A DNA stretch of 64,000 nt. Source: Myxococcota bacterium (GTDB taxonomy: Bacteria; Myxococcota_A; UBA9160; SZUA-336). Shown piece after piece: positions 22,502 to 38,781 of this stretch. Within the stretch, counting starts at the first letter, position 1. Every line of letters starts with the position of its first letter. The position numbers were made by a program, and so were the translations under genes. The notes below the pieces were generated by a model that was given only the letters and a program-made list of their open reading frames with translations, was not told the DNA's origin and ran no database searches. The DNA lies in NCBI GenBank assembly GCA_044450765.1, contig JBIOJK010000007.1, positions 2,875-66,874 on the forward strand, written 5' to 3'.

Positions 22502-22593
22502 TCTCGGGCGAGTCTCCGCCGCGCCGCGCGCCCGGGTCAAGCGTGTGGTCTAATCCGGCTCGGCGGGGTCGTGCAGGCGGAGGTTCCAGGTCG

Positions 22594-24075: not shown

Positions 24076-25281
24076 TTGCGCTGGCCCGACGGCTTCTTGT
24101 GGGGAACGGGCGCGTCCTCGACTCAGTGCGAGGGCGCGGCGCCGGCGTCCGACTGGCGGGACTGGGAACGCGCCGGGCGCGCGCCGGCCTCCGGCGAGGG
24201 GAACGGCTTCGCGCTGAGATATGCCGAGGACTTCGCGCTGCTCGCCGCGCTCGGCCTGCGGCATCACCGGCTGTCGATCGAGTGGGCGCGCATCGAGCCC
24301 GAGCCCGGTGTTCGCGATCCGCGCGCGGTCACTCACTACCGCGACGTGCTGCGCGCCGCGCGCGAAGCGGGCATCGTCCCCTGGGTCTGCCTGCACCACT
24401 TCACCCTGCCGCGCTGGTTCGCCGAGAGCGGCGGATTCCTGGTCGAGCGGAACCGAACCGAGTCATGGGCGAGACACGTCGCGTTCGCCGCGGAGACGTT
24501 CGGCGACCTGGTGGGCGGCTGGCAGCCGGTCAACGAGATGAACATCTATCCGCACATCGCCTACCGCGGCCAGGGCTTCCCGCCCGGGCGCAACGACCGC
24601 GCCGAGTTCGCGCTCGCATCCGAGGCGATTCACCTGGCGACCGCCGAGGCCGCCGTGCGCCTGAAGCAGACGGGCGCTCCGGTGTCTTCGATTTTCTCGC
24701 TGTCGGCGCTGGTCGCGCAGGATGACGAGGCCGCGACGCGTCACAGGCTCGCGCGGATGCGCGAGACACTCTGGCGTCCGGGCATCGACCTGTTTCGCGA
24801 GGGTGTCCTGCGGATTCCCGGGCGCGCGCCGGTCGAGCGGCCGGACCTCGCGCGCTGCTTCGATCTGATCGGCTTCTCGTACTACTCGGCGATCGGCGTG
24901 CGCGCCGGACGCCCCGCGATTCACCCGCCCGGCGCCGCGCGCTCGCCGCTCGGCTACGGGATCTGGGCCGACGGGCTCGGCCTCGTGCTCGACGACTTGC
25001 ACGCTCTGCTCCCCGGCCTGCCGCTGCTCGTCGCCGAGTTCGGCATCGGCACGGACGACGACGAGGTCCGCTCCCGCTATCTCGCGCGCGGGCTGGAGGT
25101 CGCGAACGCCGCGCTCGCGCGCGGCATCGACCTGCGCGGCTTCTTCCACTGGACGGCGGTCGACAACTACGAGTGGCTGCACGGCTACGACGTCGCGTTC
25201 GGGCTCTTCGACCGCGAGCGCGTGGTCCGGGCGAGCGCGCAGGTGCTGGCGCGCGAGGCGCGGGGAGCCGGAGCAGGCTGA
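24076..25281 (+). CDS. Glycoside hydrolase family 1-like protein
   Basis: FLWGTGASSTQCEG N-terminal signature and NEMN acid/base region. Apparent TTG start. Shorter than a typical GH1. Confidence 0.55.
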   Translation: MRWPDGFLWGTGASSTQCEGAAPASDWRDWERAGRAPASGEGNGFALRYAEDFALLAALGLRHHRLSIEWARIEPEPGVRDPRAVTHYRDVLRAAREAGIVPWVCLHHFTLPRWFAESGGFLVERNRTESWARHVAFAAETFGDLVGGWQPVNEMNIYPHIAYRGQGFPPGRNDRAEFALASEAIHLATAEAAVRLKQTGAPVSSIFSLSALVAQDDEAATRHRLARMRETLWRPGIDLFREGVLRIPGRAPVERPDLARCFDLIGFSYYSAIGVRAGRPAIHPPGAARSPLGYGIWADGLGLVLDDLHALLPGLPLLVAEFGIGTDDDEVRSRYLARGLEVANAALARGIDLRGFFHWTAVDNYEWLHGYDVAFGLFDRERVVRASAQVLAREARGAGAG

Positions 25282-25344
25282 CGTCGCCCGCAGCCTCCCC
25301 GCGCGTCGTACACATGGAGGTGTCGCGCGTGAGGGCTTAAGCTC

Positions 25345-26589
25345 GTGCACGTGGACGAGAGCGCCGCGGTTCTCGAACGAGTGTTTCGCGCCGAGTCGGG
25401 CGTGGTGCTCGGTGCCCTGCTGGCGCAGCTGCACGACTTCGACCTGGCGGAGGACGCGTTTCAGGACGCGGTCGCGTCGGCGCTCGAGCGCTGGCCGATC
25501 GACGGCGTGCCGCGCCGGCCCGGGGCTTGGCTGCTGACGGCGGCGCGGCGGAAGGCGCTCGATCGGCTGCGCCGCCGCGCGACCCGGCTCGACAAGCAGA
25601 GCGCGCTAGAGCTCGAGACCGAGCTGTCGAGCGCGCAGGAGTCAGCGCTGGACGACGAAGAGATACAGGACGAGCGACTGCGCCTGATCTTCACCTGCTG
25701 CCACCCGGCGCTCGGCCAGCATGCGCAGGTCGCGCTCACCCTGCGCACGCTCGGCGGCCTCTCGACGGCGGAGATCGCGCGCGCCTTTCTCGTCGACGAG
25801 AGCGCGATGGCGCGCCGGCTGGTGCGCGCGAAAGCGAAGCTGCGCGGGGAGCGGATCGCCTATCGCGCGCCGCCGCTCGAGCTCGTGCCGGAGCGCCGCG
25901 AAGCGGTGCTCTCGGTGATCTACCTGATCTTCAACGAGGGCTACGCCGCGAGCGCCGGTGACTCGCTCGTGCGGCGGGAGCTCGCGAGCGAGGCGATCCG
26001 CCTCGGGCGGGTGCTGGCCGAGCTCTTGCCGGGAGACACAGAAGTGCGTGGCCTGCTCGCGCTGATGCTTCTGCACGACGCGCGCCGCGACGCGCGCGTC
26101 GACGCGTCTGGCGTCGGCGTTCCGCTCGAAGAGCAGGACCGCGGGCGCTGGGACCATGCGCAGATCCGCGAGGGCAGAGCGCGCGTCGCCGAGCTCGGTC
26201 CGATCGCGGAGTCGGGCCCCTACGCCCTGCAGGCGCGGATCGCCTCGCTGCACGTCGCGGGGGAGCACTTCGGCCAGATCGATTGGCGGGCGATCGCCGC
26301 GCTCTATGACCGCTTGCTCGCGCTCGGCCGCTCGCCGGTGATCGAGCTGAACCGGGCCGTAGCGGTCGCGCTGGCCGACGGCCCCGAGGCAGGCCTACGT
26401 TTGCTCGAAGCCCGCGACCTGGCCCAGTCACTCGCCGACTATCCGCCGTATCTCGGCGCGCGCGCGGATCTGCTCCGCCGCGCGGGGCGAGCCTTCGAGG
26501 CCCGCGCCGCCTATCAGAGCGCACTCACCCTGGCCCGCACCGCTCCCGAGCGCGCTTTTCTCGCGCGGCGCCTGCGGGAGCTCCGGTGA
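25345..26589 (+). CDS. RNA polymerase sigma-70 (ECF-type) factor with long C-terminal extension
   Basis: Sigma-2 and sigma-4 regions in the first ~190 aa, then a ~220-aa helical extension. Such long ECF sigmas commonly pair with YciI/DGPF proteins. Confidence 0.75.
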   Translation: MHVDESAAVLERVFRAESGVVLGALLAQLHDFDLAEDAFQDAVASALERWPIDGVPRRPGAWLLTAARRKALDRLRRRATRLDKQSALELETELSSAQESALDDEEIQDERLRLIFTCCHPALGQHAQVALTLRTLGGLSTAEIARAFLVDESAMARRLVRAKAKLRGERIAYRAPPLELVPERREAVLSVIYLIFNEGYAASAGDSLVRRELASEAIRLGRVLAELLPGDTEVRGLLALMLLHDARRDARVDASGVGVPLEEQDRGRWDHAQIREGRARVAELGPIAESGPYALQARIASLHVAGEHFGQIDWRAIAALYDRLLALGRSPVIELNRAVAVALADGPEAGLRLLEARDLAQSLADYPPYLGARADLLRRAGRAFEARAAYQSALTLARTAPERAFLARRLRELR

Positions 26590-26596
26590 TCGACTC

Positions 26597-27397
26597 ATGA
26601 CCCCCGAGCTCGCCGCGCTGATTGGATTCGTCCTCCTGCCGATCGCGTGCGTCGCGCTCGAGAGGCTCTGGCCGTCGGTGCGGGGCAGGCCGTGGATTCG
26701 CGCGGGCGCTGCCTCGGACGCCGTCTGGTACGTCGTCGAGGCCTACGTCGCGCGCCTGCTCGCGCCGTGGGCGACTTACTTCGCGCTGGTCCCCGTGATG
26801 GCCGCGTACCGGATGACCGCCGGCGAGTTCTACTCCGGCTTCGGCCGGGCCGGCGCGATCCCGTTCTGGTGGCAGGTGCCGATCGTGTTCGTGCTCGCCG
26901 ACTTTCTCTCGTACTGGCAGCACCGGCTCTTCCACACGCGCGCGCTCTGGCCGATCCACGCGGTGCACCACTCGTCGACGGAGGTCGACTGGCTGAGCTC
27001 CGGGCGCTTCCATCCGCTCAACGAGATCGGCGCCCAGCTCGTCTACGTCGCGCCCGTGCTCGCGTGCGGCTTTCACCCGTACACGTTTCTGGTGCTCGCG
27101 CCGTTCACGACCTGGTACGTGGTCCTGCTGCACGCGAACCTCGGCTGGACGCTCGGGCCGCTCCGCGGGCTGATCGCGAGCCCCGTGTTCCACCGCTGGC
27201 ACCACACCCGGGCCGAAGAGGGGCTCGACAAGAACTTCGGCGGAATCCTCGCGCTCTGGGACGTCGCTTTCGGGACATACTTCATGCCGGAAGGGCGTGT
27301 CGCGACGAGCTTCGGCTCGAGTGAGCCGGTTCCGCCGGGATTCACGGCACAGCTGGTCTATCCGTTCAAGGTGCTGACTCGGTCCAAGTGGGTTTAG
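26597..27397 (+). CDS. Sterol desaturase / fatty acid hydroxylase family protein
   Basis: His boxes HRLFH, HAVHH and HRWHH in a 4-TM protein. Confidence 0.7.
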   Translation: MTPELAALIGFVLLPIACVALERLWPSVRGRPWIRAGAASDAVWYVVEAYVARLLAPWATYFALVPVMAAYRMTAGEFYSGFGRAGAIPFWWQVPIVFVLADFLSYWQHRLFHTRALWPIHAVHHSSTEVDWLSSGRFHPLNEIGAQLVYVAPVLACGFHPYTFLVLAPFTTWYVVLLHANLGWTLGPLRGLIASPVFHRWHHTRAEEGLDKNFGGILALWDVAFGTYFMPEGRVATSFGSSEPVPPGFTAQLVYPFKVLTRSKWV

Positions 27398-27409
27398 ACT
27401 GTCTGGCGT

Positions 27410-27859
27410 ATGCTGCACGGCTCGATCAACCATGTCTCGATCACGGTCTCGGATCTGCCGCGCGCAATGGGATTCTTTGCGCCGCTGCTCGAGTTCCTCG
27501 GATACGATGTGGGTCAGACATTTCACGACGGTCGCTCGGGTCATGATCTCACCGTGAACATCAACCGGTCGAACGGAACCGCGCTCAACGTCTGGCAGGC
27601 GGAAGCGGATCTCGCCGAGCATCGCTTCGAGGTCTACGAGCCCGGTCTGCACCATGTCGCATTCAACGTGGAGAGACACGAGCAGGTCGACGCGGCGCAC
27701 GAGCTCGTCCGCCGGCTCGGTGGCCAGATCCTCGACGGGCCCGCTGAATTCCCGTTCGGACCCGGCGGCTACTACGCCTTCTACTTCCTCGGTCCGGATC
27801 GCATGAAGTTCGAGATCGTCCACATGCCGCTTGCGGAGAAGAGGGCGAAGGAACGCTAG
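27410..27859 (+). CDS. VOC (glyoxalase/bleomycin-resistance) family protein
   Basis: Two beta-alpha-beta-beta-beta modules. HVSITV and HVAF motifs. Confidence 0.7.
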   Translation: MLHGSINHVSITVSDLPRAMGFFAPLLEFLGYDVGQTFHDGRSGHDLTVNINRSNGTALNVWQAEADLAEHRFEVYEPGLHHVAFNVERHEQVDAAHELVRRLGGQILDGPAEFPFGPGGYYAFYFLGPDRMKFEIVHMPLAEKRAKER

Positions 27860-27877
27860 TCGGGATCGGAGGTTCTC

Positions 27878-28282
27878 TTGCAGCGAACAGCACGATGCTC
27901 CTGTGGCTCACTGCGGGTCACTGCTTCGGGGGAGCCGGCCAGCGTCGTGGCTTGCCACTGTCTGGAGTGCCAGCGCCGAACCGGATCCGTCTTCGGGGTC
28001 GGTGCGTACTATCCGGAAGGGCAAGTCGCGATCTCGGGCGTCTCCAAGCAGTTCGCGCGTCCCACGGAGTCAGGCAACGACTTCACGACTCACTTCTGTC
28101 CGTCTTGCGGGTCTTCGGTGTATTGGAGCTCGGGAAAGAATCCCGGACTCGTCGGGGTGGCCGTGGGAGCGTTCGGCGACGCGTCGTTCCCGCAGCCGGG
28201 TCGCTCGGTCTGGGAGCGTTCGATGCACGCGTGGGTCGAGATCGCCATCGCCCAGCAGCACTTTCCGAAGGGGCGGGTCTAG
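27878..28282 (+). CDS. GFA family protein (glutathione-dependent formaldehyde-activating / CENP-V-like)
   Basis: CxC...CHCxxC zinc motifs (RCSCGSL, CHCLECQRRTG, FCPSCGS). GGAGG RBS 8 bp upstream of the TTG. Confidence 0.75.
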   Translation: MQRTARCSCGSLRVTASGEPASVVACHCLECQRRTGSVFGVGAYYPEGQVAISGVSKQFARPTESGNDFTTHFCPSCGSSVYWSSGKNPGLVGVAVGAFGDASFPQPGRSVWERSMHAWVEIAIAQQHFPKGRV

Positions 28283-29670
28283 GAAGCCCTTCTCGCCTTC
28301 AGCGCGTGTCCGGCGAGTGTCTTGCCGAGATCCCAGATCGAGCCCGGCACCTTGTGAGTGTCGGCGATCACCTGGTCGCACGCGCTGCGGATCCAGCGGC
28401 GGTCGTCTTCGGAGATCACGAGCGGCGGCAGGAACTTCACGACGTTGCAGCCGTGACCCGCGACCTGCGACAGGATCCGGTGGTTCTTGAACAGCGGGAT
28501 CGTGATCATCTGGCTGAACAGGCCCGGCTGCGCAGCTTCGAGGAGCTTCCACGCGGCGCGTAGCGAGAGACTCTTCGGCTCGCCGAACTCGAGCGCGATC
28601 ATCATGCCCTTGCCGCGGACCTCTTTGAGAAACTCGTGCTTCTCGATCAGGCCGCGCAGGTCGCAGATCAGCGACTCGCCGAGCTTCGAGGCGTGCTCGA
28701 CGAGATTCTCTTCCTTGAGCACGCGCAGGGTCGCGATGCCCGCCGCCATCGCGAGGTTGTTCTTGGAGAAGGTCGAGCCGTGGATCGGGGAGCGGATCAT
28801 CGAGCTGAACAGCTTGTCGAAGACGTCCTTGCGCATGCCGACCGCGCCCACGGGCACAAAGCCGCCCGACAGCGCCTTCGCCATGAGGATCATGTCGGGC
28901 TCGGCGTTCCAGTGATTCACGGCCCACATGCGGCCCGTGCGCCCCAGGCCGGTCTGCACCTCGTCAGCGACGAAGAGAGTCCCGTGCTGCCGACAAAGTC
29001 GCGCCGCCTCGCGCAGATAGTCGGGACCGGCGACGTGCACGCCGTGGCCCTGGATCGGCTCGACGATGAACGCGGCGACGTCGCGCTTCGCGAGCGCCGC
29101 CTCGAGCGCGGGCAGGTCGTTGAACGGAATCCGGCGACAGCCCGGGAGCATCGGGCCGAAGCCCTCCTGGAAGATGTCGTCGCCGTTCAGCGAGACCGCC
29201 CCCATCGTGAGTCCGTGAAACGCGTGCTCGCAGTAGACGAGGCCTTCGCGGCGCGTGGCGTAGCGCGCGAACTTGATCGCCGCCTCCACCGCCTCGGTGC
29301 CGGAGTTGCAGAAGAACACCTTGTCGAGCCCGCCCGGGAACGTGGGCACGAGTCTCTCGGCGAGGATCCCCGCCAGGAGTGACACGTCCATCTGCACCAG
29401 GCTCGGCAGCTCGCCCTCGAGCACCTCGCGCAGGGCCGCCACGATCGCCGGGTGATTGCGGCCGACCGCGAAGACGCCGTAGCCGGACAAGAGGTCCAGA
29501 TACCGGTTGCCCTCGTCGTCCCATAGATAGGGACCTTCGGCCTTCGCGTAGCGCCGATCGAAGCCGATCGTGCGCAACACGCGCGCGTGTTGAGTGTTCA
29601 AATAGCGCTCGTGGAGCGCGAAGCTCTCGCCGCGCCGCTGCGCCAGGAGTTCGAGCAGGCTCTCGGACAT
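28279..29670 (-). CDS. Class III (aspartate aminotransferase family) PLP-dependent aminotransferase
   Basis: The DEVQTGLGRTG motif matches the DExQ(T/V)G consensus of the acetylornithine/GABA aminotransferase family and is not a direct PLP-Lys motif. 463 aa. Confidence 0.85.
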   Translation of the reverse strand: MSESLLELLAQRRGESFALHERYLNTQHARVLRTIGFDRRYAKAEGPYLWDDEGNRYLDLLSGYGVFAVGRNHPAIVAALREVLEGELPSLVQMDVSLLAGILAERLVPTFPGGLDKVFFCNSGTEAVEAAIKFARYATRREGLVYCEHAFHGLTMGAVSLNGDDIFQEGFGPMLPGCRRIPFNDLPALEAALAKRDVAAFIVEPIQGHGVHVAGPDYLREAARLCRQHGTLFVADEVQTGLGRTGRMWAVNHWNAEPDMILMAKALSGGFVPVGAVGMRKDVFDKLFSSMIRSPIHGSTFSKNNLAMAAGIATLRVLKEENLVEHASKLGESLICDLRGLIEKHEFLKEVRGKGMMIALEFGEPKSLSLRAAWKLLEAAQPGLFSQMITIPLFKNHRILSQVAGHGCNVVKFLPPLVISEDDRRWIRSACDQVIADTHKVPGSIWDLGKTLAGHALKARRAS

Positions 29671-29697
29671 TCGGATCCCTTCCGATCGACTTCGTTC

Positions 29698-29737
29698 GGC
29701 TTCGCCTCACTGCGCGCGGCTTCGCCTCACTGCGCGC
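29698..29737. repeat. Perfect 20-bp tandem direct repeat (GGCTTCGCCTCACTGCGCGC x2) in a divergent promoter region
   Basis: Seen directly between the aminotransferase start (29670, minus strand) and the first DGPF gene (29834). Confidence 0.8.
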
Positions 29738-29833
29738 CGCTGCACCGCTTTCGCCGAGCGCAGAATACCTTTCTTTGGGCGCCAGCGTCGTTTCTGCGGG
29801 GGTACGCTCGTCGTAGTCGCAGGAGGGTCGAAC

Positions 29834-30532
29834 GTGGAGTTCATGCTGCTGATCGAAGACCGGCGCTCCGAGACGCAGCGCGCCTCGGTGAGCCCCGAGG
29901 AAATGGGCAAGTTCGCCCGCGAGCTCGCCGAGCGCGGCATCCTGCGCGGGGCCGCGGGCCCGCTGCGACCCGACTCCGAGGCGGCGCGGGTGCGCCTCCG
30001 GGACGGCCGGGCGGTCGTGACCGACGGCCCGTTCCCCGAGGCGAGCGAAGTGCTCGGCGGGTATTTCGTCGTCGACGTCGCGGATCGCGCGGCCGCGGTC
30101 GAGATCGCAAAGCGCTGCCCGTACGCGCGTACCGGGCTGGTCGAGGTGCGCGCCATGAAGTACTGGCGCCGATCCGAAGGGAACGGCGGCGCCGAGTTCG
30201 TGCTGCTGTACATCATGGATCCGAGCGTGACTGGACCCGACGAGCCGCGGATCGCGAAGATGATGACCGCGACCGACGAGCTGCAACGCGCCGGCACGCA
30301 CTTGGGCGGCGCGCGTCTCGAGCCCGAGATCCCGGGCACGCGCGTCGAGCTTCGCGGCGAAAGAGCGATCGTGCTGGACGGGCCGTTCGCCGAGAGCAAG
30401 GAAGTGTTCGGCGGCTTTGCCCTGATCCAGGCGGCCAGCCGCGCCGAGGCGATCGAGATCGCGCTGCGCATTCCGCACTCGGGCTGGGGCACGACCGAGG
30501 TCCGCGAAGTCGGCCGCCGGGGCGCGCCGTGA
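29834..30532 (+). CDS. YciI-like / DGPF-domain protein with two tandem DGPF domains (paralog 1)
   Basis: Two repeats of the xDGPFxExxEVxGGyxxxxxxxRxEAIExA motif. Starts MEFMLLIED (GTG). Confidence 0.7.
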   Translation: MEFMLLIEDRRSETQRASVSPEEMGKFARELAERGILRGAAGPLRPDSEAARVRLRDGRAVVTDGPFPEASEVLGGYFVVDVADRAAAVEIAKRCPYARTGLVEVRAMKYWRRSEGNGGAEFVLLYIMDPSVTGPDEPRIAKMMTATDELQRAGTHLGGARLEPEIPGTRVELRGERAIVLDGPFAESKEVFGGFALIQAASRAEAIEIALRIPHSGWGTTEVREVGRRGAP

Positions 30533-31185
30533 TTCGGCTGTACGGCAGCGCGAACACGCGCGCCTTCCGCGTGCTCTGGATGCTCGAGGAGCTCGGCGTT
30601 CCCTACCAGCTGGTGAGAGTGGACTTCGACGGCGGCGCGTCGCGCACGCCCGAGTTCTTGGCGCTGAATCCGAACGGGCGCGTCCCCGTCCTGGACGACG
30701 GCGGGCTCGTGCTGTTCGAATCACTCGCCATCAACCTGTATCTCGCCGAGAAGTACGGGAGCGACTCGCTCTGGCCGAAGGCCGCCGCGGACCGCGCGCG
30801 CGCGGTGCAGTGGTCGTTCTGGGCCATGACCGAGTGCGAGCGGAGCCTGTTCGCGGTGCTCTTCGGCTCGCGCACCGGCGAATTCGCGAAGTGGCGCGAG
30901 TGGACCGAGAGCGCCGAGTTCCGCGAGACACATCCCGGCTTCCGCATGCCGCCCGCCGACGAGGCGCACGCCGCGCTGCAGCCACCGCTGCGCGTGCTGG
31001 ACTCACACCTCGCCGCGCGCGGCAGCATGCTGGGCGGGCCGTTCTCGGCGGCGGATCTGAACGTCGCCTCGGTGCTGCTGACCGCGCGCCTCGCGCAGAT
31101 GGATCTCGCGGGTTTTCCGAGCCTCGACGCCTGGCTCACGCGCGCGATGTCGCGCGCCGCGCTCGGCGTCGCCGCGAGAAAGTGA
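30529..31185 (+). CDS. Glutathione S-transferase
   Basis: The GTG overlaps the upstream stop. GST N-domain (ESLAINLYLAE) and C-domain. Confidence 0.75.
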   Translation: MIRLYGSANTRAFRVLWMLEELGVPYQLVRVDFDGGASRTPEFLALNPNGRVPVLDDGGLVLFESLAINLYLAEKYGSDSLWPKAAADRARAVQWSFWAMTECERSLFAVLFGSRTGEFAKWREWTESAEFRETHPGFRMPPADEAHAALQPPLRVLDSHLAARGSMLGGPFSAADLNVASVLLTARLAQMDLAGFPSLDAWLTRAMSRAALGVAARK

Positions 31186-31199
31186 GCAGGAGGTCGGTC

Positions 31200-31910
31200 G
31201 TGGAATTCATGCTGTTGATCGAAGACCGTCGCGGCGAGGCGCCCCGCGCGTCCGTGAGCGTCCAGGAGATGGGCAAGTTCGCGCGCGAGCTCGGCGAGCG
31301 CGGCATCCTGCGCGGCGCCGCGGGCCCGCTGCGACCCGACTCCGAGGCCGTGCGTGTTTCGCTGAAGGGCGGTCGGGCGAGTGTGACCGACGGTCCGTTC
31401 GCCGAGGCGCGCGAGGTGGTCGGTGGGTACTTCGCGATCGATGTCGCGGATCGCGCGGCCGCGATCGAGGTCGCGGCGCTCTGCCCCTACGCGCGAGCGG
31501 GCGCGGTCGAGGTTCGCGCCATGCGCTCCATGCCGCGGGACGAGGCGACCGGCGGGCCGCAGTTCGTGCTCCTGTTTCTGCTTGCGGCGGACGCGCCGGT
31601 CCCCGACGCAGCGCGCCTGGCGGAGGGCATGGCGCAGATGCGGGCCGTCGTCGACGAGCTGCGCCGCGAGGGGAAACACCTCGCGGGCGCCGGCCTGCCG
31701 CCCGAGCCTCCGGCTGCGCGCGTCGAGATCCGCGGCGAGAAGGTGTTCGTTCGCGACGGCCCGTTCGCCGAGTCCAAGGAAGTCACTCTGGGCTTCGCGC
31801 TGGTCCAGGCGCCGAATCGCGCGGCGGCGATCGAGACCGCGAAGCGCATCCCTCACGCGGGCTGGGGATCGATCGAAGTGCGCGAAGTCGGCCCGCTGGG
31901 CGCTGCCTGA
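31200..31910 (+). CDS. YciI-like / DGPF-domain protein with two DGPF domains (paralog 2)
   Basis: GTG at 31200 after an AGGAGG RBS. Same MEFMLLIEDRRGE N-terminus and duplicated DGPF architecture. Confidence 0.7.
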   Translation: MEFMLLIEDRRGEAPRASVSVQEMGKFARELGERGILRGAAGPLRPDSEAVRVSLKGGRASVTDGPFAEAREVVGGYFAIDVADRAAAIEVAALCPYARAGAVEVRAMRSMPRDEATGGPQFVLLFLLAADAPVPDAARLAEGMAQMRAVVDELRREGKHLAGAGLPPEPPAARVEIRGEKVFVRDGPFAESKEVTLGFALVQAPNRAAAIETAKRIPHAGWGSIEVREVGPLGAA

Positions 31911-31940
31911 CTCGCGCCACGAGACACGAAGGAGAAGACC

Positions 31941-32642
31941 GTGGACTACCTGCTCTTGGTCCTGAGTCACAAAGGCGAGGCGCCGCGCGAAGAAATCGAC
32001 TTCGCCGAGATGGGGAAGTTCGCCGGCGAGCTCAGCCAGCAGGGGAAGATGCGCGGCGGCGCGCCGCTCCACCCCGAGAGCGCGGGCGCCCGGGTGAGCG
32101 TGCGCCGCGGCAAGCTGCAGACCGCCGACGGCCCCTTCGCAGAGAGCAAGGAAGTGATCGGCGGCTATTTCATGTTCGACGCGCGCGACGCGGCCGAGGC
32201 GCTCGAGATCGCCAAGCGCTGCCCCGCAGCGCGCTCCGGCTTCGTCGAGCTGCACTCGGCCATGGCGGACCGCGCCGAGTCACCGCCTTCGGCCGGCGCG
32301 AAATACATGCTGATCTTTCTGGAGGGGCCGGACTTCGGCGGCGACCCCGACGGCTCGAAGTACCGCGAGATGGAGAAGTGGACCGACGAGCTGAAGCGCG
32401 AGCGGAAATACGTCGAGTGCGCCGGCTTGCCGAAGTCGGAGCCGGGCGCGCGCGTCGAGACACGCGGCGCGAAGGTCGCGGTGACCGACGGCCCGTTCGC
32501 CGAGGCGAAGGAGATCGTCGGCGGCTATGCGGTCGTGGTGGCGGCCGCGCGCAGCGCCGCGCTCGAGCTCGCCGCGCGCTGCCCGCATGCGACTTGGGGC
32601 GTGGTCGAAGTCCGCGAGATCATGTCCGTCCCGGCGATGTGA
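31941..32642 (+). CDS. YciI-like / DGPF-domain protein with two DGPF domains (paralog 3)
   Basis: MDYLLLVLSHKGE N-terminus. Two DGPFAExKE repeats. Confidence 0.7.
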   Translation: MDYLLLVLSHKGEAPREEIDFAEMGKFAGELSQQGKMRGGAPLHPESAGARVSVRRGKLQTADGPFAESKEVIGGYFMFDARDAAEALEIAKRCPAARSGFVELHSAMADRAESPPSAGAKYMLIFLEGPDFGGDPDGSKYREMEKWTDELKRERKYVECAGLPKSEPGARVETRGAKVAVTDGPFAEAKEIVGGYAVVVAAARSAALELAARCPHATWGVVEVREIMSVPAM

Positions 32643-33472
32643 TGGCCGCGAGCGAGGCTCCCAGCTTCGACCTCGGACGGACACTGCGGGTCGAGCGCGT
32701 GTCGGCGGGCGAGTTCACGGCGTCGCTCGAGAACGCGTTCGGCCGGGCGCAGCTCAATGACCTGCTCGCGCGCGCGGCGCTCGCCGCCTGCGAGACCGCG
32801 GGAGAGCTTCCACTGGTGCAGCTCTCCGCGACTTACCTGCGGCCGCCGCCGTGCAGTGTGGCCCTCCGGCTCGCGGTCGAGTCGCTCGACGACGGCGCGG
32901 GCCAGGCGCTCCGGCGCGTGCGTGTCTCGGGCGACGCTCTCTTCGCGGAGGTGACTGCCAGCTTCGCGCGCGCCGGCACGGGGCCCGACTTCGGACCGCC
33001 GCTCCCGGACGGCTTGCCGAAGCCCGAGGACCTGCCCAGCACGCTCGAGGTCGCGCGCGCGGAGTGCTGGGAGGAGTACGCGGCGGGTCCGATCGGGTTC
33101 CGGCGCGTCAATCGCGTCTGGCCGCCGCCGCCCGAAGAGCGACTGTCTCCGCACCGCGAGTGGCTGCGGCCGCGCGCCCCGCTGCCGCCGGATCCACGCG
33201 TGCACACGGCGGCGCTCGCCTTCGCGAGTCAGTTCTACTCGCAATGGGCGTTCGAGTGGCGGACCGGTCCGGGCTTCGCGCACGAGCGCTTCGAGATCCT
33301 CGATCACTCGCTCTGGGTCCACGGGCCCGTGCGCTGGGACGATTGGTGGCTGCTCGACGCGATCTGCGACGTGAGTCGCGGCGGCCGCGCGCTGGCCCAC
33401 CGCCGCATCTTCGCGCGCGACGGCAGGCTGCTCGCGTCGATCACTCACGCGGGAAGAATCTCGCTTCGCTGA
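32642..33472 (+). CDS. Acyl-CoA thioesterase II-like (double hot-dog) protein
   Basis: ATG overlapping the upstream TGA. TesB-like length and conserved C-terminal region. Assignment is tentative. Confidence 0.45.
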   Translation: MAASEAPSFDLGRTLRVERVSAGEFTASLENAFGRAQLNDLLARAALAACETAGELPLVQLSATYLRPPPCSVALRLAVESLDDGAGQALRRVRVSGDALFAEVTASFARAGTGPDFGPPLPDGLPKPEDLPSTLEVARAECWEEYAAGPIGFRRVNRVWPPPPEERLSPHREWLRPRAPLPPDPRVHTAALAFASQFYSQWAFEWRTGPGFAHERFEILDHSLWVHGPVRWDDWWLLDAICDVSRGGRALAHRRIFARDGRLLASITHAGRISLR

Positions 33473-33566
33473 CGTGCCCCAGGCCGAGCGCTGAGCGAGG
33501 ACCGGGGCGACGGATGATGCGGACCGCGCGGCGGCCCTCGCCCGAGCGCTCGGCGATTTCAGTGGG

Positions 33567-34142
33567 TCAGTTGTCGGGGGCTTCGAAGCCGGTGACCGCG
33601 AACCACTTGTCTTCGGAGCCGGCCATGATGAACACGACCGGCGCGACGCACGGATTGGGCAGCGTCAGCTTCGCGTTGATCACGGAGTTGCCGTTCGCGT
33701 CCGCGGGGAATCCGACGCTGGTGACGTTCGCCGTGGGCGTCGCGGCGCCGTCTTCCGTCAGGCAGCTCACGAGCCCGCGGAACTGCGCCTCGTCGTTCTT
33801 CCCGCGCAGCTCGGGCGGCACCGAGGGATCGTCCTTGAAGACGAGGCCTCTCACGTTGATGAAGAGATGTCCCGAGGTCGTCAGGAATCCGCGCACGGAC
33901 TTCGCGACTTCCCACGGGGCCTCGTCGCCAACCACGCCGCGGATCGGGTTCGCGTCGCCGATGAAGCCGCCGTCCACCCCGTACATCGAGTGGAACGAGA
34001 GCATGAGGCGCGGAATCTCGGGCTTCTTGTGCTCGCCGCCGCCTCCCATGCCCATGCTGATGATGCCGTGGTCCGCAGACGCGGAAGCCGTCAGGAACGC
34101 GGCGAGAGTGAGTGTCAGACCGGTCGCGATGATGCTGCGCAT
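33567..34142 (-). CDS. Secreted hypothetical protein
   Basis: Signal peptide, Gly-rich, coding-like. No domain recognised. Confidence 0.45.
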   Translation of the reverse strand: MRSIIATGLTLTLAAFLTASASADHGIISMGMGGGGEHKKPEIPRLMLSFHSMYGVDGGFIGDANPIRGVVGDEAPWEVAKSVRGFLTTSGHLFINVRGLVFKDDPSVPPELRGKNDEAQFRGLVSCLTEDGAATPTANVTSVGFPADANGNSVINAKLTLPNPCVAPVVFIMAGSEDKWFAVTGFEAPDN

Positions 34143-34229
34143 GAACCCTCCATCCGCGGTAGCGCCGCGGGACTAGGGGAGTACGACGCGGCGGGGGTTG
34201 CAGATTCCGCGCGTGGTAGAGTCGCAGAG

Positions 34230-35762
34230 ATGTCGCCGTCGACGCGGATCCCGCACGCGGCCGCGCCGTACAACGCGGGTGCCGATCTGCTCGTGTCGGC
34301 CGCGCGGCGAGGTGGTGACACAGTCGTGCGCTGTGACGGCGTCGCGACGAGCGGTGAGTCGCTCGCTGCGGGTGCGCTCGCGCTGCAGGCGGGACTCGGC
34401 GCGCGCGGTGTCTCGCCCGGTGAGCGCGTTCTCATTCTGCTGCGCGACACGCCCGCGTTCGTCATGGCGTTCACGGGCGCGCTGCGAGGCGGATTCGTGC
34501 CCGTCCCGCTCTCGACGTCGCTGCCCGCCAAGGACGCGTCGTTCATTGCCCGCGACGCCGGAGTGCGCGCCGCCCTCGTCGATCGCTCACTGCCCGCACT
34601 CGCCGATCCGGCCCTGTATCCCCCAGGCGCCGCGCTGATTCACGCCGGCGTCTCGAGCTTCGAGGGAGTCTCGCCCGGCGCGGAGCCCGACGCGGCGCCG
34701 ACCCTCGCCGGTGACCGGGCGTTCTTCCTGTACACGTCGGGCACCACGGGCGAGCCGAAGGGCGCCGTGCACCGGCACGTCGATCTGCCGGTCACCGCCG
34801 AGTGTTACGCGCGCGATTTGCTCGAGCTCGGTCCGGGCGACCGCGTGCTCTCCGCCGCCAAGCTGCACTTCGCGTACGGGCTCGGCAACTCACTCACCTT
34901 TCCGCTCGCGCTCGGCGCCGAGGTGGTGCTCGCGCCGGAGCGCGCGACGCCGGAGGCGGTCTTTGCGCTGATCGCGCGCGAGCAGCCCAGCGTATTCTTC
35001 GGCGTGCCGACCTTGTACGCCGCCATGCTCGCGCACCCGGAGCCGCCCGCGAGCCTCGGCCGCGTGCGCGTCTGTGTTTCGGCAGGCGAAGCGCTGCCCG
35101 CCGCGCTGTACCAGCGCTGGCTGACACAGTTCGGTGTCGAGATCCTCGACGGGCTCGGCAGCACGGAGATGCTCCACGTCTTTCTGTCGAACCGACCGGG
35201 CGCCGCGCGCGCAGGCTCGTGCGGCGTGCCGGTTTCGGGCTACGAGCTGCGCGTTGTGGACGGCGACGGCAACGACGTCCCGGACGGCGAGATCGGCACG
35301 CTGCTCGCGCGCGGCGAGAGCGCGGCGCGCGCGTATCACGAGCGGCCCGCGGACACCGCGCGCACCATGTTCGCGCCGGGCTGGCTGCGCACCGGCGACA
35401 GCGTTCGCCGCGACGGCGACGGATTCTACTGGCACGCGGGCCGCAGCGACGACCTGATCAAGGTGAGCGGCTCGTACGTCTCGCCGATCGAGGTCGAGGC
35501 GCTGCTCGCAGAGCACCCGTCGGTGCTCGAGGCCGCCGTCGTCGGCGAGCCCGACGCGAGCGGTCTCACCAAGCCGCGCGCGTTCGTGGTGCTGGCCCCC
35601 GGAGCGCAGCCGAGCGAGCGGCTGGCGCGCGAGCTGCAGGAGTTCGTGAAGGCGAACAGCGCGCCGCACAAGTATCCTCGGCGCGTGGACTTCGTCGACG
35701 AGCTGCCGAAGACGGCGACCGGCAAGATCCGCCGCCACTTGCTGCGCGAGAAGCGGCCGTGA
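34230..35762 (+). CDS. Benzoate-CoA ligase family (aromatic acid-CoA ligase, AMP-binding)
   Basis: AMP-binding motif FLYTSGTTGEPKG. C-terminal GWLRTGD...KVSG and PKTATGKI. Directly upstream of boxC/boxB. Confidence 0.8.
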   Translation: MSPSTRIPHAAAPYNAGADLLVSAARRGGDTVVRCDGVATSGESLAAGALALQAGLGARGVSPGERVLILLRDTPAFVMAFTGALRGGFVPVPLSTSLPAKDASFIARDAGVRAALVDRSLPALADPALYPPGAALIHAGVSSFEGVSPGAEPDAAPTLAGDRAFFLYTSGTTGEPKGAVHRHVDLPVTAECYARDLLELGPGDRVLSAAKLHFAYGLGNSLTFPLALGAEVVLAPERATPEAVFALIAREQPSVFFGVPTLYAAMLAHPEPPASLGRVRVCVSAGEALPAALYQRWLTQFGVEILDGLGSTEMLHVFLSNRPGAARAGSCGVPVSGYELRVVDGDGNDVPDGEIGTLLARGESAARAYHERPADTARTMFAPGWLRTGDSVRRDGDGFYWHAGRSDDLIKVSGSYVSPIEVEALLAEHPSVLEAAVVGEPDASGLTKPRAFVVLAPGAQPSERLARELQEFVKANSAPHKYPRRVDFVDELPKTATGKIRRHLLREKRP

Positions 35763-37362
35763 GCAGGTCGAGCGACGGCGTGCCGCGCGAGCTCGAGACC
35801 GCGCCCGAGCGCTATCGCCACTGGCGGCTCGTGGTCGACGGCCCGCTCGCGCGACTCACCCTGGCGGTCGACGAGGGCGGCGCGCTGGCCGACGGGGTGA
35901 CGCTCAAGCGCAACAGCTACGACCTCGGCGTCGATCTCGAGCTGCGCGACGCGGTCACCCGCCTGCGCTTCGAGCACCCCGCGGTGCGCTGCGTGGTGGT
36001 CGAGAGCGCGCTCGCCGACGTGTTCTGCGCGGGTGCGAACATCGCCATGCTGGCCCGCTCGTCGCACCCGCTGAAGGTGAACTTCTGCAAGCTCACGAAC
36101 GAGACGCGGCTCGAGATCGAGGCGGCGACGCGCGCGGGACAGCGCTGGATCGCGGCGCTCGCCGGCACCGCGAGCGGGGGCGGCTACGAGCTCGCGCTCG
36201 CCTGCGAGCGCATTCTGCTCGTCGACGATCGCCGGGCCGCCGTGAGTCTGCCCGAGCTGCCGCTGCTGGCCGTGCTGCCAGGCACCGGCGGACTCACTCG
36301 GCTCGTCGACAAGCGCCGCGTTCGGAAGGACGTGGCGGATCTGTTCTGCACCACGGAAGAGGGTGTGCGCGCGCCGCGCGCGCTGGCCTGGGGGCTGGTC
36401 GACGCGATCGCGGCGCCGAGCGAGTTCCGCGCGCTGGTGGAGCGCGAGGTCGCGGTCGCCCTGGCCGACGAGGCGCCGGCGCGCCCGCTGCGCGGCGTTT
36501 CGCTCGAGTCACTCGACCCGGAAGTGACTTCGCGGGGGATCCGCTACCGGCACGTCGAAGTGAGCCTCGATCCGGAGCGGCGCGTCGCAGAGATCCGGTT
36601 GCTGCTTCCAGGCGGCGGGGTCCCGGAGATGCTGCGGATCGCGCGCGAGCTCGACGACGCGATTCTGCGCCTGCGCCTCCACCATCCCGAGCTGGGTCTG
36701 TGGCTGCTGCGAGTCAGCGGCGACCCGGCGCACGCGCGCGCGCTCGACCGCGCGCTGCTCGGCGACGGCTGGCTCGCGGGCGAGGTGCGCGCTCTCTGGG
36801 GCCGCGTGCTGAAGCGGATCGAGAACTCGGCGCGCTCGAGCTTCGCGCTGGCCGACGCGGGCAGCTGCTTCGCGGGCGCGTTCCTCGAGCTCGCGCTCGC
36901 CGCGGACCGCTGCTACATGCTGCGCGGCGCGGAGAGCGCGCCGGCGCTCGAGCTCGGCGCGGCGAACTTCGGCGCTTATCGGATGGCCAACGGACTCACT
37001 CGCCTCGAGACTCGCTTCCTGGGTGCGGCCGAGAGAGTCGCGGCGCTGCGTTCCGAGACTTCTCCCGTCGACGCGGAGCGCGCCGTCGAGCTCGGCCTGG
37101 TGACCGAGGCGCTCGACGAGATCGACTGGGCCGACTCGCTGCGCGTCGCGATCGAGGAGCGCGCGAGCTTCTCGCCCGACGCGCTGACCGGCATGGAGGC
37201 CAGTCTGCGCTTCCCCGGGCCCGAGACGCTCGAGACCAAGATCTTCGCGCGCCTCTCGGCGTGGCAGAATTGGATCTTCCAGCGCCCCAACGCCGCCGGG
37301 CCCGACGGCGCGCTGCGCGCCTACGGACGCCCGGAGCGGGCGAAGTTCGATTGGAAGCGCAC

Positions 37363-37366
<4 letters not shown>
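35759..37366 (+). CDS. boxC: Benzoyl-CoA-dihydrodiol lyase (BoxC-like, crotonase superfamily)
   Basis: About 535 aa, crotonase-like (FCAGANI), with the GTG overlapping the ligase stop. Assigned from its position before boxB and its BoxC-like length. Confidence 0.65.

Positions 37367-38781
<1,415 letters not shown>

What the first reader, a model, noticed from the sequence alone, without database searches (positions are those of the whole stretch)
25345..33472. Three tandem double-DGPF (YciI-like) paralogs in an operon with a GST and a thioesterase, near a long ECF-type sigma factor
Genes at 29834, 31200 and 31941 each encode about 232-aa proteins made of two consecutive DGPF/YciI-like domains with conserved DGPFxExKEV and GGY motifs. 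Two of them share the MEFMLLIEDRR N-terminus. They are packed with 4-bp overlaps together with a GST (30529) and a TesB-like thioesterase (32642). A 414-aa ECF-type sigma factor, a type known to co-occur with DGPF proteins, lies 3 kb upstream. The intervening genes are a FA hydroxylase, a VOC protein and a GFA protein. DGPF/YciI proteins have no established biochemical function. A triplicated, internally duplicated set fused into a glutathione/thioester operon suggests a small-molecule-processing role, for example a dehalogenase or isomerase-like activity, under sigma-factor control.
Basis: partly seen in the sequence, partly recalled or inferred. Interest (0 to 1): 0.55.

Follow-up and report, generated by a model that had tools for sequence, protein, structure and literature searches.

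The report
ECF42 sigma factor with fused-DGPF target operon
An uncultured Myxococcota genome carries an already-known kind of stress-response switch (an ECF42 sigma factor) whose conserved target promoter sits in front of an operon of three double-domain DGPF/YciI proteins, a glutathione transferase and a thioesterase, so the gene set is real and probably sigma-controlled, but it is a local elaboration of a known system and its chemistry is still unknown.

Summary
Genes at 29834, 31200 and 31941 encode 232-, 236- and 233-aa proteins. Each has two PF03795 (YCII/DGPF) domains. They sit in a tightly spaced five-gene operon with a GST and a TesB-like thioesterase. The 414-aa sigma factor at 25345 has sigma2, sigma4, DUF6596 and TPR regions, which is the ECF42 architecture.

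CGTCGT-N17-CGTCGTA lies 21 nt upstream of the first gene. It is conserved as a footprint in five diverged orthologous loci. A near-identical box precedes the sigma gene itself. The pattern has exactly these 2 hits in 64 kb, against 0.05 expected. Across phyla, 38 of 77 DGPF-upstream regions carry YGTCGN-N17-CGWC, against 2% of control windows. This matches the published S. meliloti ECF42 promoters.

The triplication is lineage-specific. The conserved core is one D1-type gene, one D3-type gene and the thioesterase. The GST and extra copies come and go. Double-domain DGPF proteins are common, including in Nocardia, and resemble fusions of the tandem DGPF gene pairs seen beside ECF42 genes.

No evidence supports a dehalogenase role. 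The only solved relative is PA1349, of unknown function. The N-domains of D1 and D2 contain no histidine.

Verdict: a real feature and a further example of the known ECF42-DGPF system, of modest interest.

The parts
25282..25310 (+). ECF42-type promoter-like box upstream of the sigma gene: CGTCGC-N16-CGTCGTA
   Evidence: One of only two matches to CGTCG-N17/18-CGTCGTA in the window (0.05 expected). The orthologous position in L007 has CGTCGT-N17-CGTCGTA. It is absent in L010, where the sigma gene directly follows the cyclase gene.
25345..26589 (+). ECF42-type sigma factor, 414 aa: sigma2, sigma4 and a ~230-aa C-terminal DUF6596/TPR extension
   Evidence: Pfam. TIGR02937 sigma70-ECF above cut-off. 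It is 40-58% identical to the sigmas next to DGPF genes in 64 of 80 loci from many phyla.
26597..28282 (+). Three genes apparently co-transcribed with the sigma gene: FA_hydroxylase (26597-27397), VOC/glyoxalase (27410-27859), GFA (27878-28282)
   Evidence: Pfam. Gaps of 7, 12 and 18 nt. This trio is not conserved after the sigma gene in L003, L007 or L010.
28279..29670 (-). Class-III aminotransferase, divergent from D1. A conserved neighbour that separates the sigma unit from the YCII unit.
   Evidence: Pfam Aminotran_3, E=9e-97. It is 90-94% identical in all orthologous loci.
29697..29741 (.). 20-bp tandem repeat, 2.2 copies (CGGCTTCGCCTCACTGCGCG), window-specific
   Evidence: TRF. Absent from the same intergenic region of L001, L003 and L007.
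29760..29776 (.). Conserved AT-rich block GCAGAATACCTTTCTTT just upstream of the -35 box. It may be an UP-like element, or the -10 region (TATTCT on the minus strand) of the divergent aminotransferase promoter. This is inference.
   Evidence: Conserved in all five diverged orthologous upstream regions.
29786..29815 (+). ECF42-type promoter of the YCII operon: CGTCGT-N17-CGTCGTA. The -10 box ends 21 nt before the GTG start codon.
   Evidence: Phylogenetic footprint: the boxes and the 17-nt spacing are invariant while the 5' half of the spacer varies. Matches S. meliloti RpoE10 promoters, TGTCGG-N17-CGTC (PMC6180224). Other Myxococcota YCII2 genes have TGTCG(A/G)-N17-CG(A/T)C. Found in 38 of 77 DGPF upstream regions against 2.2% of control windows.
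29834..30532 (+). D1, double YCII/DGPF protein, 232 aa. GTG start 7 nt after GGAGG; the NCBI annotation starts at ATG 29843.
   Evidence: AF2 model pLDDT 91, pTM 0.88. Best fold match is 1s7i.
30529..31185 (+). Cytosolic-type glutathione S-transferase, 218 aa
   Evidence: Pfam. PDB GSTs 4nhw and 3lsz. Present in L003-L009; absent in L001 and L010.
31200..31910 (+). D2, double YCII/DGPF protein, 236 aa, a paralogue of D1 (67% identical)
   Evidence: Most orthologous loci have no D2 position.
31941..32642 (+). D3, double YCII/DGPF protein, 233 aa, an older paralogue (46-48% identical). It has orthologues in every orthologous locus that extends that far.
32642..33472 (+). TesB-like double-hotdog acyl-CoA thioesterase, 276 aa. 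Its start codon overlaps the D3 stop codon by 1 nt.
   Evidence: Pfam. NCBIfam tesB 66 bits, below the cut-off of 293. PDB 4r4u and 1c8u. Junction sequence.
33567..34142 (-). Conserved 191-aa signal-peptide protein of unknown function, convergent with the operon
   Evidence: No Pfam or NCBIfam hit. 822 homologues. All-beta model with no PDB match.
34182..34211 (-). Possible third promoter of the same type, in front of the 191-aa gene: conserved CGTCGTA box with a weaker -35 (CGCGGA here, CGTCGA in L003)
   Evidence: Alignment of five orthologous upstream regions. L003 and L004 match the strict pattern. Weak in the window itself.
34230..37366 (+). Context only: benzoate-CoA ligase (34230-35762) and a BoxC-like 2,3-epoxybenzoyl-CoA dihydrolase (35759-37366). 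This is the start of a box-type cluster and a separate transcription unit.
   Evidence: TIGR02262 520 bits, above the cut-off of 375. TIGR03222 685.7 bits, just below the cut-off of 712.3. A PaaA_PaaC/BoxB-like gene follows.

Best explanation
This is a local ECF42 sigma-factor regulon.

The sigma factor (25345-26589) belongs to the class that has no anti-sigma factor and instead carries a C-terminal TPR/DUF6596 extension. When active, RNA polymerase carrying it recognises promoters of the form YGTCGN-N17-CG(T/A)C. One such promoter precedes the sigma gene itself, giving autoregulation of sigma-FA hydroxylase-VOC-GFA. Another precedes the five-gene operon D1-GST-D2-D3-thioesterase. A weaker one may precede the divergent 191-aa secreted protein gene.

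The three YCII proteins are covalent fusions of two diverged DGPF domains. They are the single-chain equivalent of the two adjacent DGPF genes found beside ECF42 genes in many phyla. They are predicted with high confidence to fold as one compact two-domain unit.

Shown here: gene content, operon-like spacing, the conserved promoter footprint, the shared box at the sigma gene, and cross-phylum enrichment of the motif upstream of DGPF genes.

Inferred: that this particular sigma uses these promoters. Also inferred: that the products act together as a cytoplasmic response to a reactive or hydrophobic small molecule. In that reading the DGPF units bind or transform the compound, and the GST, VOC, GFA and thioesterase supply thiol-adduct and thioester chemistry. 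The biochemical step carried out by the DGPF proteins remains unknown.

The confidence of 0.6 is for the statement as a whole. It is roughly 0.75 for the regulatory part (an ECF42-type sigma with the YCII operon as its target) and roughly 0.25 for the small-molecule detoxification reading.
For: - Architecture of the sigma factor.
- 64 of 80 DGPF loci from many phyla carry a 40-58% identical sigma in the same locus, usually immediately downstream of the DGPF gene. In Myxococcota locus L092 a fused YCII2 gene sits directly upstream of such a sigma. In L093 a YCII2 gene sits next to two YCII-sigma operons.
- Promoter: CGTCG(T/C)-N17-CGTCGTA is conserved upstream of the first YCII2 gene in the window and in L001, L003, L007 and L010, while the adjacent spacer bases vary.
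- The pattern derived from that footprint has only two hits in the 64-kb window, the D1 site and a site 35 nt before the sigma gene, against 0.05 expected. L007 has it before its sigma gene too.
- Other Myxococcota YCII2 genes have TGTCGG-N17-CGTC, TGTCGA-N17-CGAC or CGTCGA-N17-CGAC.
- 38 of 77 upstream regions of DGPF genes across phyla carry YGTCGN-N17-CGWC, against 2.2% of 3080 control windows.
- The motif equals the experimentally supported RpoE10 (ECF42) promoters of S. meliloti, whose targets include glyoxalase-like proteins (PMC6180224).
- Operon: overlaps or gaps of 4, 14, 30 and 1 nt, each gene with a Shine-Dalgarno sequence, and no terminator above chance.
- Fusion: N-to-N identity is 46-76% and C-to-C is 43-57%, but N-to-C is only 35-40%. 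N-halves group with gene 1 of betaproteobacterial tandem DGPF pairs. Most distant 'double' matches are two adjacent single-domain genes.
- Structure: pLDDT 91, pTM 0.88. Best fold match is the DGPF protein PA1349, TM 0.79 over one domain.
Against: - No expression data exist. Promoter use by this sigma is inferred from motif and context only.
- The -35 box begins with C rather than the usual T, and ends with T rather than A or G.
- The simple motif is not enriched in this 70% GC window as a whole. The significance rests on the comparative footprint and on a pattern refined after seeing the data.
- L001 has the operon and promoter but no sigma gene within 10 kb.
- L010 lacks the box in front of its sigma gene.
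- The GST and the VOC/GFA genes are not conserved parts of the unit, so the 'thiol chemistry' theme is weak.
- Nothing tested here reveals a ligand or reaction for the DGPF domains.
Confidence: 0.6

Rival explanations
1. The double-DGPF proteins are not effectors. They are regulatory partners of the sigma factor. They would bind its C-terminal TPR/DUF6596 extension, perhaps after binding a small-molecule signal, and switch it on or off. The enzymes in the operon would be the true output.
For: A review of non-canonical ECFs proposes this role for the conserved YCII neighbour and notes YCII domains fused to other ECF sigmas (PMC8999054). DGPF and sigma genes are tightly linked across phyla. A YCII2 gene lies directly upstream of a sigma gene in L092.
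Against: Here the DGPF genes lie 3.2 kb from the sigma gene, in a different transcription unit, in three copies, and one is translationally coupled to a thioesterase. L001 keeps the operon without a nearby sigma gene. No interaction was or could be tested with these tools.
Confidence: 0.2
2. The D1/D3/thioesterase module is an accessory part of the adjacent aerobic benzoyl-CoA (box) pathway. The TesB-like enzyme would release CoA from benzoyl-CoA or from reactive epoxide or aldehyde intermediates. The ferredoxin-fold DGPF proteins would act as isomerases or tautomerases on ring-derived products, by analogy with muconolactone isomerase.
For: The order aminotransferase(-), YCII2 genes, thioesterase, 191-aa gene(-), benzoate-CoA ligase, BoxC, BoxB-like is kept in the seven orthologous loci that reach that far (L001, L003, L004, L007-L010); L005 and L006 end earlier. 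The ligase passes the TIGR02262 cut-off and the BoxC-like protein scores 685.7 bits against a cut-off of 712.3. YciI proteins are described as homologous to muconolactone isomerases (PMC7641849).
Against: The loci are close relatives (aminotransferase 90-94% identical), so the synteny may simply be inherited. The box genes are a separate unit behind an opposite-strand gene. More distant YCII2 genes (L002, L091-L093) and more distant thioesterase homologues (L094-L096) are not next to box genes or to each other. The operon has an ECF42-type promoter rather than an obvious link to the box promoter.
Confidence: 0.12
3. The cluster is a chance juxtaposition of unrelated genes. The double-DGPF copies are neutral local duplications without a common function or common control.
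For: Copy number and GST presence vary among relatives. One paralogue in L010 (P0022) has a degenerate N-domain motif, DGAGA. The generic promoter motif occurs at chance frequency in this GC-rich window.
Against: The D1-type, D3-type and thioesterase order is kept wherever the locus extends far enough, and the 1-nt D3/thioesterase overlap is seen in the window, L001, L003-L005, L007, L009 and L010. The promoter footprint is conserved with invariant spacing. The refined box occurs only at the two expected sites in the window.
Confidence: 0.05

Closest known systems
[quoted passage not shown]
   Same: - Sigma2-sigma4 core plus a ~200-aa C-terminal TPR-containing extension.
- No anti-sigma gene nearby.
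- DGPF genes in the neighbourhood.
- Target promoter (T/C)GTCGN-N17-CG(T/A)C.
- Glyoxalase/VOC-type genes among the co-regulated genes, as in S. meliloti (PMC6180224; PMC8999054).
   Different: - The DGPF genes are not adjacent to the sigma gene. They lie 3.2 kb away behind an opposite-strand gene.
- They are fused two-domain proteins present in three copies.
- They share an operon with a GST and a TesB-like thioesterase.
- The -35 box begins with C instead of T.
PA1349 of Pseudomonas aeruginosa (PDB 1s7i), a single-domain DGPF protein of unknown function
   Same: It is the only solved relative by sequence (profile E=7e-33 over the whole domain) and the best fold match (TM 0.79, 31% identity). 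It has the same DGPFAExKE...GG(F/Y) motifs.
   Different: PA1349 has 124 aa and one domain. The window proteins join two diverged copies in one chain.
YciI (HI0828, PDB 1mwq) and TftG, the 5-chlorohydroxyhydroquinone dehydrochlorinase of the YCII superfamily
   Same: Same Pfam family (PF03795) and the same ferredoxin-like fold. 1mwq appears as a weak fold match (E=0.04, TM 0.66).
   Different: Neither is detected by the half-domain sequence profile even at E=10. The His-Asp dyad required for TftG catalysis (PMC7641849) cannot exist in the N-domains of D1 and D2, which contain no histidine.
Two-domain ferredoxin-like pseudo-dimers: chlorite dismutase, coproheme decarboxylase, HmoB, sulfur oxygenase reductase
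   Same: Architecture only: two tandem ferredoxin-like alpha+beta domains in one chain. These are the next Foldseek matches (E 7e-4 to 1e-2).
   Different: TM scores are only about 0.4, identity is 8-10% and rmsd is 8-11 A. There are no shared motifs, so this is an analogy of layout and not membership.

Membership tests
ECF42 sigma factors | Only sigma2 and sigma4 regions in the core | tested here: met
   PF04542 at residues 17-79 and PF08281 at residues 115-166. TIGR02937 54.3 bits, above the cut-off of 42.9.
ECF42 sigma factors | C-terminal extension of about 200 aa with tetratricopeptide repeats | tested here: met
   Residues 184-414: DUF6596 (E=5e-37) followed by TPR_2, TPR_12 and TPR_21 hits. 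The TPR hits are below Pfam gathering scores.
ECF42 sigma factors | No cognate anti-sigma factor gene next to the sigma gene | tested here: met
   The neighbours are GH1, FA hydroxylase, VOC and GFA. None is a recognisable anti-sigma domain. Absence of a novel anti-sigma factor cannot be proven.
ECF42 sigma factors | DGPF/YCII-related gene conserved in the genomic neighbourhood | tested here: met
   Three YCII genes lie 3.2 kb downstream. The sigma gene is 3.5-9 kb from the YCII operon in L003, L005, L007 and L010. It is not immediately adjacent, unlike the canonical arrangement seen in most of the 64 sigma-containing distant loci.
ECF42 sigma factors | Group-specific promoter motif upstream of the target genes and of the sigma gene's own operon | tested here: met
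   CGTCGT-N17-CGTC at 29786 and CGTCGC-N16-CGTC at 25282. The motif class was validated across phyla and against S. meliloti RpoE10 promoters. The first base is C rather than T.
ECF42 sigma factors | Assignment by the group-specific HMMs of the ECF classification (ECF Hub / ECFfinder) | not testable with these tools
   Those models are not in any library available here.
YCII / DGPF family (PF03795) | Match to the family model above the curated threshold, in both halves | tested here: met
   118, 116 and 104 bits against a cut-off of 24, with two stretches in each protein.
YCII / DGPF family (PF03795) | DGPF...GG(Y/F) signature of the DGPF subgroup | tested here: met
   D, G, P, F, E, E and the second glycine are invariant across 12 half-domains. 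The D2 C-domain has LG instead of GG.
YCII / DGPF family (PF03795) | Ferredoxin-like alpha+beta fold | tested here: met
   AF2 model pLDDT 91, with a strand-helix-strand pattern repeated twice. Foldseek: 1s7i, probability 1.00, TM 0.79.
   No histidine at all in residues 1-117 of D1 and D2. For the D3 N-domain and the three C-domains the test is inconclusive, because no TftG sequence was available to align. The half-domain profile does not reach YciI or TftG structures.
Acyl-CoA thioesterase II (TesB) | Double hot-dog architecture, and equivalog-level similarity to TesB | tested here: inconclusive
   Both hot-dog halves are found (PF13622, PF20789, PF02551). The TIGR00189 score of 66 bits is far below the cut-off of 293. 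The protein is a family member, not a TesB orthologue. Catalytic residues were not checked.
Aerobic benzoyl-CoA (box) pathway cluster (neighbour) | Benzoate-CoA ligase, BoxC and BoxB present and co-oriented | tested here: inconclusive
   The ligase passes TIGR02262. The BoxC-like protein scores 685.7 bits, just below the cut-off of 712.3. The BoxB-like protein is only a weak PaaA_PaaC hit. BoxA was not looked for. The YCII operon is not in the same transcription unit.

The most novel reading that the evidence does not exclude
A D1-type and a D3-type double-DGPF protein are invariably paired with a TesB-like thioesterase that is translationally coupled to D3, all under an ECF42 promoter. This could mean that DGPF proteins work on, or sense, acyl-/aryl-CoA or glutathione thioesters, for example reactive intermediates leaking from the neighbouring benzoyl-CoA epoxide pathway. 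That would give the first biochemical handle on the DGPF family, which has no assigned function, and on the unknown signal that activates ECF42 sigma factors.
Probability: 0.12. Interest if true: 0.6.

Novelty: new member of a known kind. Interest (0 to 1): 0.3.

Why it matters
ECF42 is one of the most widespread ECF sigma-factor groups. Neither its inducing signal nor the function of its conserved DGPF partner proteins is known. This locus adds a clean comparative example: a promoter footprint with invariant spacing, an autoregulatory box, and a target operon.

It also shows that the DGPF partners can be fused into single-chain two-domain proteins, multiplied, and wired to a thioesterase and a GST. 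If the thioesterase link reflects shared chemistry, it suggests concrete substrates to test. Otherwise the locus is a routine member of a known regulatory family in an uncultured Myxococcota lineage.

Tried and rejected
- Searching the window for the literature-style motifs TGTCGN-N15-19-CGTC and GTCGN-N16-18-CGTC gave counts at or below chance (7 against 12 expected; 41 against 53 expected). In a 70% GC genome the bare motif is uninformative. The comparative footprint was needed.
It returned only distant relatives (at most 37% full-length identity) and no close Myxococcota genomes. It did serve as a cross-phylum sample.
- The primary ECF42 paper (PMC6182237) and the TftG paper (PMC3789946) are not held. 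Statements about them rest on secondary citations.
- A profile of the half-domains against the PDB found only 1s7i, so no functional transfer was possible.
- Contexts of more distant thioesterase homologues (42-52% identity; L094-L096) contained neither YCII nor box genes. They therefore could not discriminate between the detoxification and box-pathway readings.
- No ECF42 box was found upstream of the FMN-reductase/cyclase genes that precede the sigma gene. A conserved TGGTCTAAT suggests a housekeeping promoter there.
- The sigma-70 promoter and terminator scan of 25000-34400 found nothing above chance.
- The 191-aa secreted protein was modelled at pLDDT 77 and had no PDB fold match. Its homologue in another phylum (L097) has no such promoter.
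- The dehalogenase idea was rejected for the D1 and D2 N-domains because they lack histidine.

Full report
**1. What is there**

The window is 70% G+C and comes from a Myxococcota MAG contig. The D1 protein is 100% identical to an NCBI protein named 'MAG: YciI family protein [Myxococcota bacterium]' on a 67-kb contig.

ORF listing and Pfam give this gene order:
- FHA protein (-), FMN reductase, cyclase, GH1 glycosidase.
- Sigma factor, 25345-26589 (+).
- FA hydroxylase, VOC/glyoxalase, GFA (all +).
- Class-III aminotransferase, 28279-29670 (-).
- D1 29834-30532, GST 30529-31185, D2 31200-31910, D3 31941-32642, TesB-like thioesterase 32642-33472 (all +).
- A 191-aa signal-peptide protein, 33567-34142 (-).
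- Benzoate-CoA ligase, BoxC-like, BoxB-like, a beta-lactamase-family protein, and an MFS transporter.

D1, D2 and D3 each match PF03795 (YCII) twice, with E-values from 3e-34 to 6e-30. D1 and D2 are 67% identical. D3 is 46-48% identical to both. It needs three small corrections:
- Only D1/GST overlap by 4 nt. D3 and the thioesterase overlap by 1 nt. The other two junctions are gaps of 14 and 30 nt, each with a Shine-Dalgarno sequence.
- An aminotransferase gene on the opposite strand separates the sigma unit from the YCII unit.
- PF04946 gave no hit in the Pfam copy searched; only PF03795 matched.

**2. The sigma factor**

It has sigma2 and sigma4 regions followed by DUF6596 and TPR-like sequence. 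A review and the ECF reclassification describe this as the hallmark of group ECF42. Those sources list a ~200-aa TPR extension that is essential for activity, no anti-sigma factor, and a conserved YCII-related neighbour (PMC8999054; PMC7826278).

In my own sample of 80 DGPF loci from many phyla, 64 carry a full-length homologue of this sigma at 40-58% identity. In most it lies immediately downstream of the DGPF gene. Examples include Mesorhizobium, Bradyrhizobium, Kribbella, Variovorax and Caballeronia.

**3.

S. meliloti RpoE10 (ECF42) promoters read TGTCGG-N17-CGTC (PMC6180224). A naive search for this motif is uninformative in a 70% GC window.

I therefore fetched orthologous loci by exact-protein look-up and aligned the region upstream of the first YCII gene. 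In five diverged versions (window, L001, L003, L007, L010) the following elements are conserved:
- The blocks CGTCG(T/C) and GGGGTACGCTCGTCGTA.
- Their 17-nt spacing.
- The distance to the ribosome-binding site.

The 5' half of the spacer differs in every version, so this is a phylogenetic footprint.

The pattern taken from that footprint, CGTCG-N17/18-CGTCGTA, has exactly two matches in the 64-kb window against 0.05 expected:
- The D1 site at 29786-29815.
- A site at 25282-25310, 35 nt in front of the sigma gene.

L007 has the same box in front of its sigma gene.

YCII2 genes in other Myxococcota contigs carry TGTCGG-N17-CGTC (L002), TGTCGA-N17-CGAC (L091, L092, L093) or CGTCGA-N17-CGAC (L093) at the same position.

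As an independent control, 38 of 77 regions upstream of DGPF genes across phyla contain YGTCGN-N17-CGWC, and 37 of them begin with TGTCG. Only 2.2% of 3080 random windows from the same loci contain it.

I conclude that the D1-GST-D2-D3-thioesterase operon has an ECF42-type promoter and that the sigma gene is probably autoregulated. This is still inference from sequence. No expression data exist.

A third, weaker box with a conserved CGTCGTA and a variable -35 precedes the 191-aa gene on the minus strand.

**4. What is conserved and what is not**

The eight orthologous loci, which represent four distinct versions besides the window (L003-L006 and L007-L009 are near-identical sets), share this order wherever they extend far enough: aminotransferase(-), one D1-type gene, one D3-type gene, thioesterase, 191-aa gene(-), box genes.

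The GST is present in L003-L009 but absent in L001 and L010. L010 has three YCII2 genes without a GST, and the first of them has a degenerate N-domain motif. The window has an extra D1-like copy (D2) after the GST. The 'triplication' is thus a recent, lineage-specific elaboration of a two-gene core.

The sigma gene lies 3.5-9 kb upstream in L003, L005, L007 and L010, with entirely different genes in between. It is not within 10 kb in L001. The FA-hydroxylase/VOC/GFA trio after the sigma gene is unique to this genome.

**5. The double domain**

N-halves are 46-76% identical to each other and C-halves are 43-57% identical to each other. N- and C-halves are only 35-40% identical. The fusion therefore predates the D1/D3 split.

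In distant loci the 'double' tblastn matches are mostly two adjacent single-domain DGPF genes. True fusions occur in a few loci: L011, L046, L077 and L078. In a neighbour-joining tree without bootstrap support, the window's N-halves group with gene 1 of betaproteobacterial tandem pairs, up to 49% identical. This is consistent with fusion of a heterologous pair.

AlphaFold2 predicts one compact two-domain protein, with pLDDT 91 and pTM 0.88. The best PDB fold match is the single-domain DGPF protein PA1349, with TM 0.79 on the target. The next matches are unrelated two-domain ferredoxin-like proteins at TM about 0.4, which is an analogy of layout only.

The architecture is common. Of 7711 hits in the 50%-identity representative library, most of the best 150 are 220-300 aa and align along the whole query or in two stretches. 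One such cluster is 'YciI family protein' of cultured Nocardia asiatica and N. barduliensis.

**6. Function**

No enzymatic assignment can be transferred. A profile of the half-domains finds only PA1349 (unknown function) among all PDB sequences, even at E=10.

The one characterised enzyme of the superfamily, TftG, needs a His-Asp dyad (PMC7641849). The N-domains of D1 and D2 have no histidine.

The thioesterase is a double hot-dog family member but scores far below the TesB equivalog cut-off. The GST is a generic cytosolic type.

VOC, GFA, GST and a thioesterase together hint at thiol-adduct and thioester chemistry, and S. meliloti RpoE10 also controls glyoxalase-like proteins. However, only the thioesterase is a conserved partner. 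More distant thioesterase homologues are not next to YCII or box genes, and more distant YCII2 genes are not next to thioesterases. The functional meaning of the pairing therefore remains open.

**7. Verdict**

The finding is real and the sigma-control idea is supported. The system is a further example of the known ECF42-DGPF module, with clade-specific embellishments: fused and multiplied DGPF proteins, a coupled thioesterase, and an optional GST. The proposed dehalogenase or isomerase chemistry is unsupported. Interest is modest. The main value is a clean comparative promoter footprint and a testable DGPF-thioester lead.

Noticed in passing
window 33567-34142 (-): A 191-aa signal-peptide protein with no Pfam or NCBIfam match but 822 homologues at 55-85% identity in Myxococcota and Candidatus Polarisedimenticolia MAGs. 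Invariant motifs are MYGVDG, GDExPW, RGLVF, NDE, VSC, LPNPC and AGSEDKWFAVTG, with two invariant cysteines. The AF2 model is all-beta (pLDDT 77) and has no PDB fold match. It looks like an undescribed conserved secreted family.
   Followed up: partly
window 34182-34211 (-), and L003 13848-13877 (-): The 191-aa gene is preceded by a conserved CGTCGTA box with a variable -35-like element (CGTCGA in L003/L004, CGGCGA in L007/L010, CGCGGA in the window). It may be a third promoter of the same sigma factor. The box is absent from the homologue in another phylum (L097).
   Followed up: partly
window 29697-29741: A 20-bp tandem repeat, 2.2 copies (CGGCTTCGCCTCACTGCGCG), inserted in the aminotransferase/D1 intergenic region. 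It is absent from L001, L003 and L007. Similar GCCTCACTGCGCGC sequence occurs upstream of the sigma gene in L007.
   Followed up: no
window 29760-29776: An AT-rich block GCAGAATAC(C/A)TTTCTTT is conserved in all orthologous loci just upstream of the -35 box. It may be an UP-like element, or the -10 region (TATTCT on the minus strand) of the divergent aminotransferase promoter.
   Followed up: no
window 34230-38781: A box-type aerobic benzoyl-CoA cluster: a benzoate-CoA ligase (passes TIGR02262), a BoxC-like protein (685.7 bits, just under the 712.3 cut-off) and a BoxB-like PaaA_PaaC protein. A beta-lactamase-family gene and an MFS transporter follow. No BoxA was looked for.
   Followed up: partly
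window 22400-22600 and L010 1931-2100: A conserved GTGTGGTCTAAT (extended -10-like) lies upstream of the FMN-reductase/cyclase genes that precede the sigma gene. In L010 the sigma gene follows the cyclase directly without its own ECF42 box, so there it may be read from this housekeeping-type promoter.
   Followed up: no
L010 9271-9972 (P0022): The first of three YCII2 genes in this relative has lost the N-domain signature (DGAGA-APMV instead of DGPFAExxEV) while keeping the C-domain one. This suggests the two halves can diverge in function.
   Followed up: no
L096 7001-8829: A distant homologue (42% identity) of the TesB-like thioesterase sits directly upstream of a 325-aa ECF-type sigma factor with sigma2 and sigma4 only. 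This is another thioesterase-ECF pairing in an unrelated context.
   Followed up: no
window 29834 vs 29843: The public annotation starts D1 and D2 at the internal ATG (229 and 233 aa). However, GGAGG/AGGAGG lies 7 nt before the upstream GTG in both genes and 16 nt before the ATG, so the GTG starts (232 and 236 aa) are more likely.
   Followed up: partly
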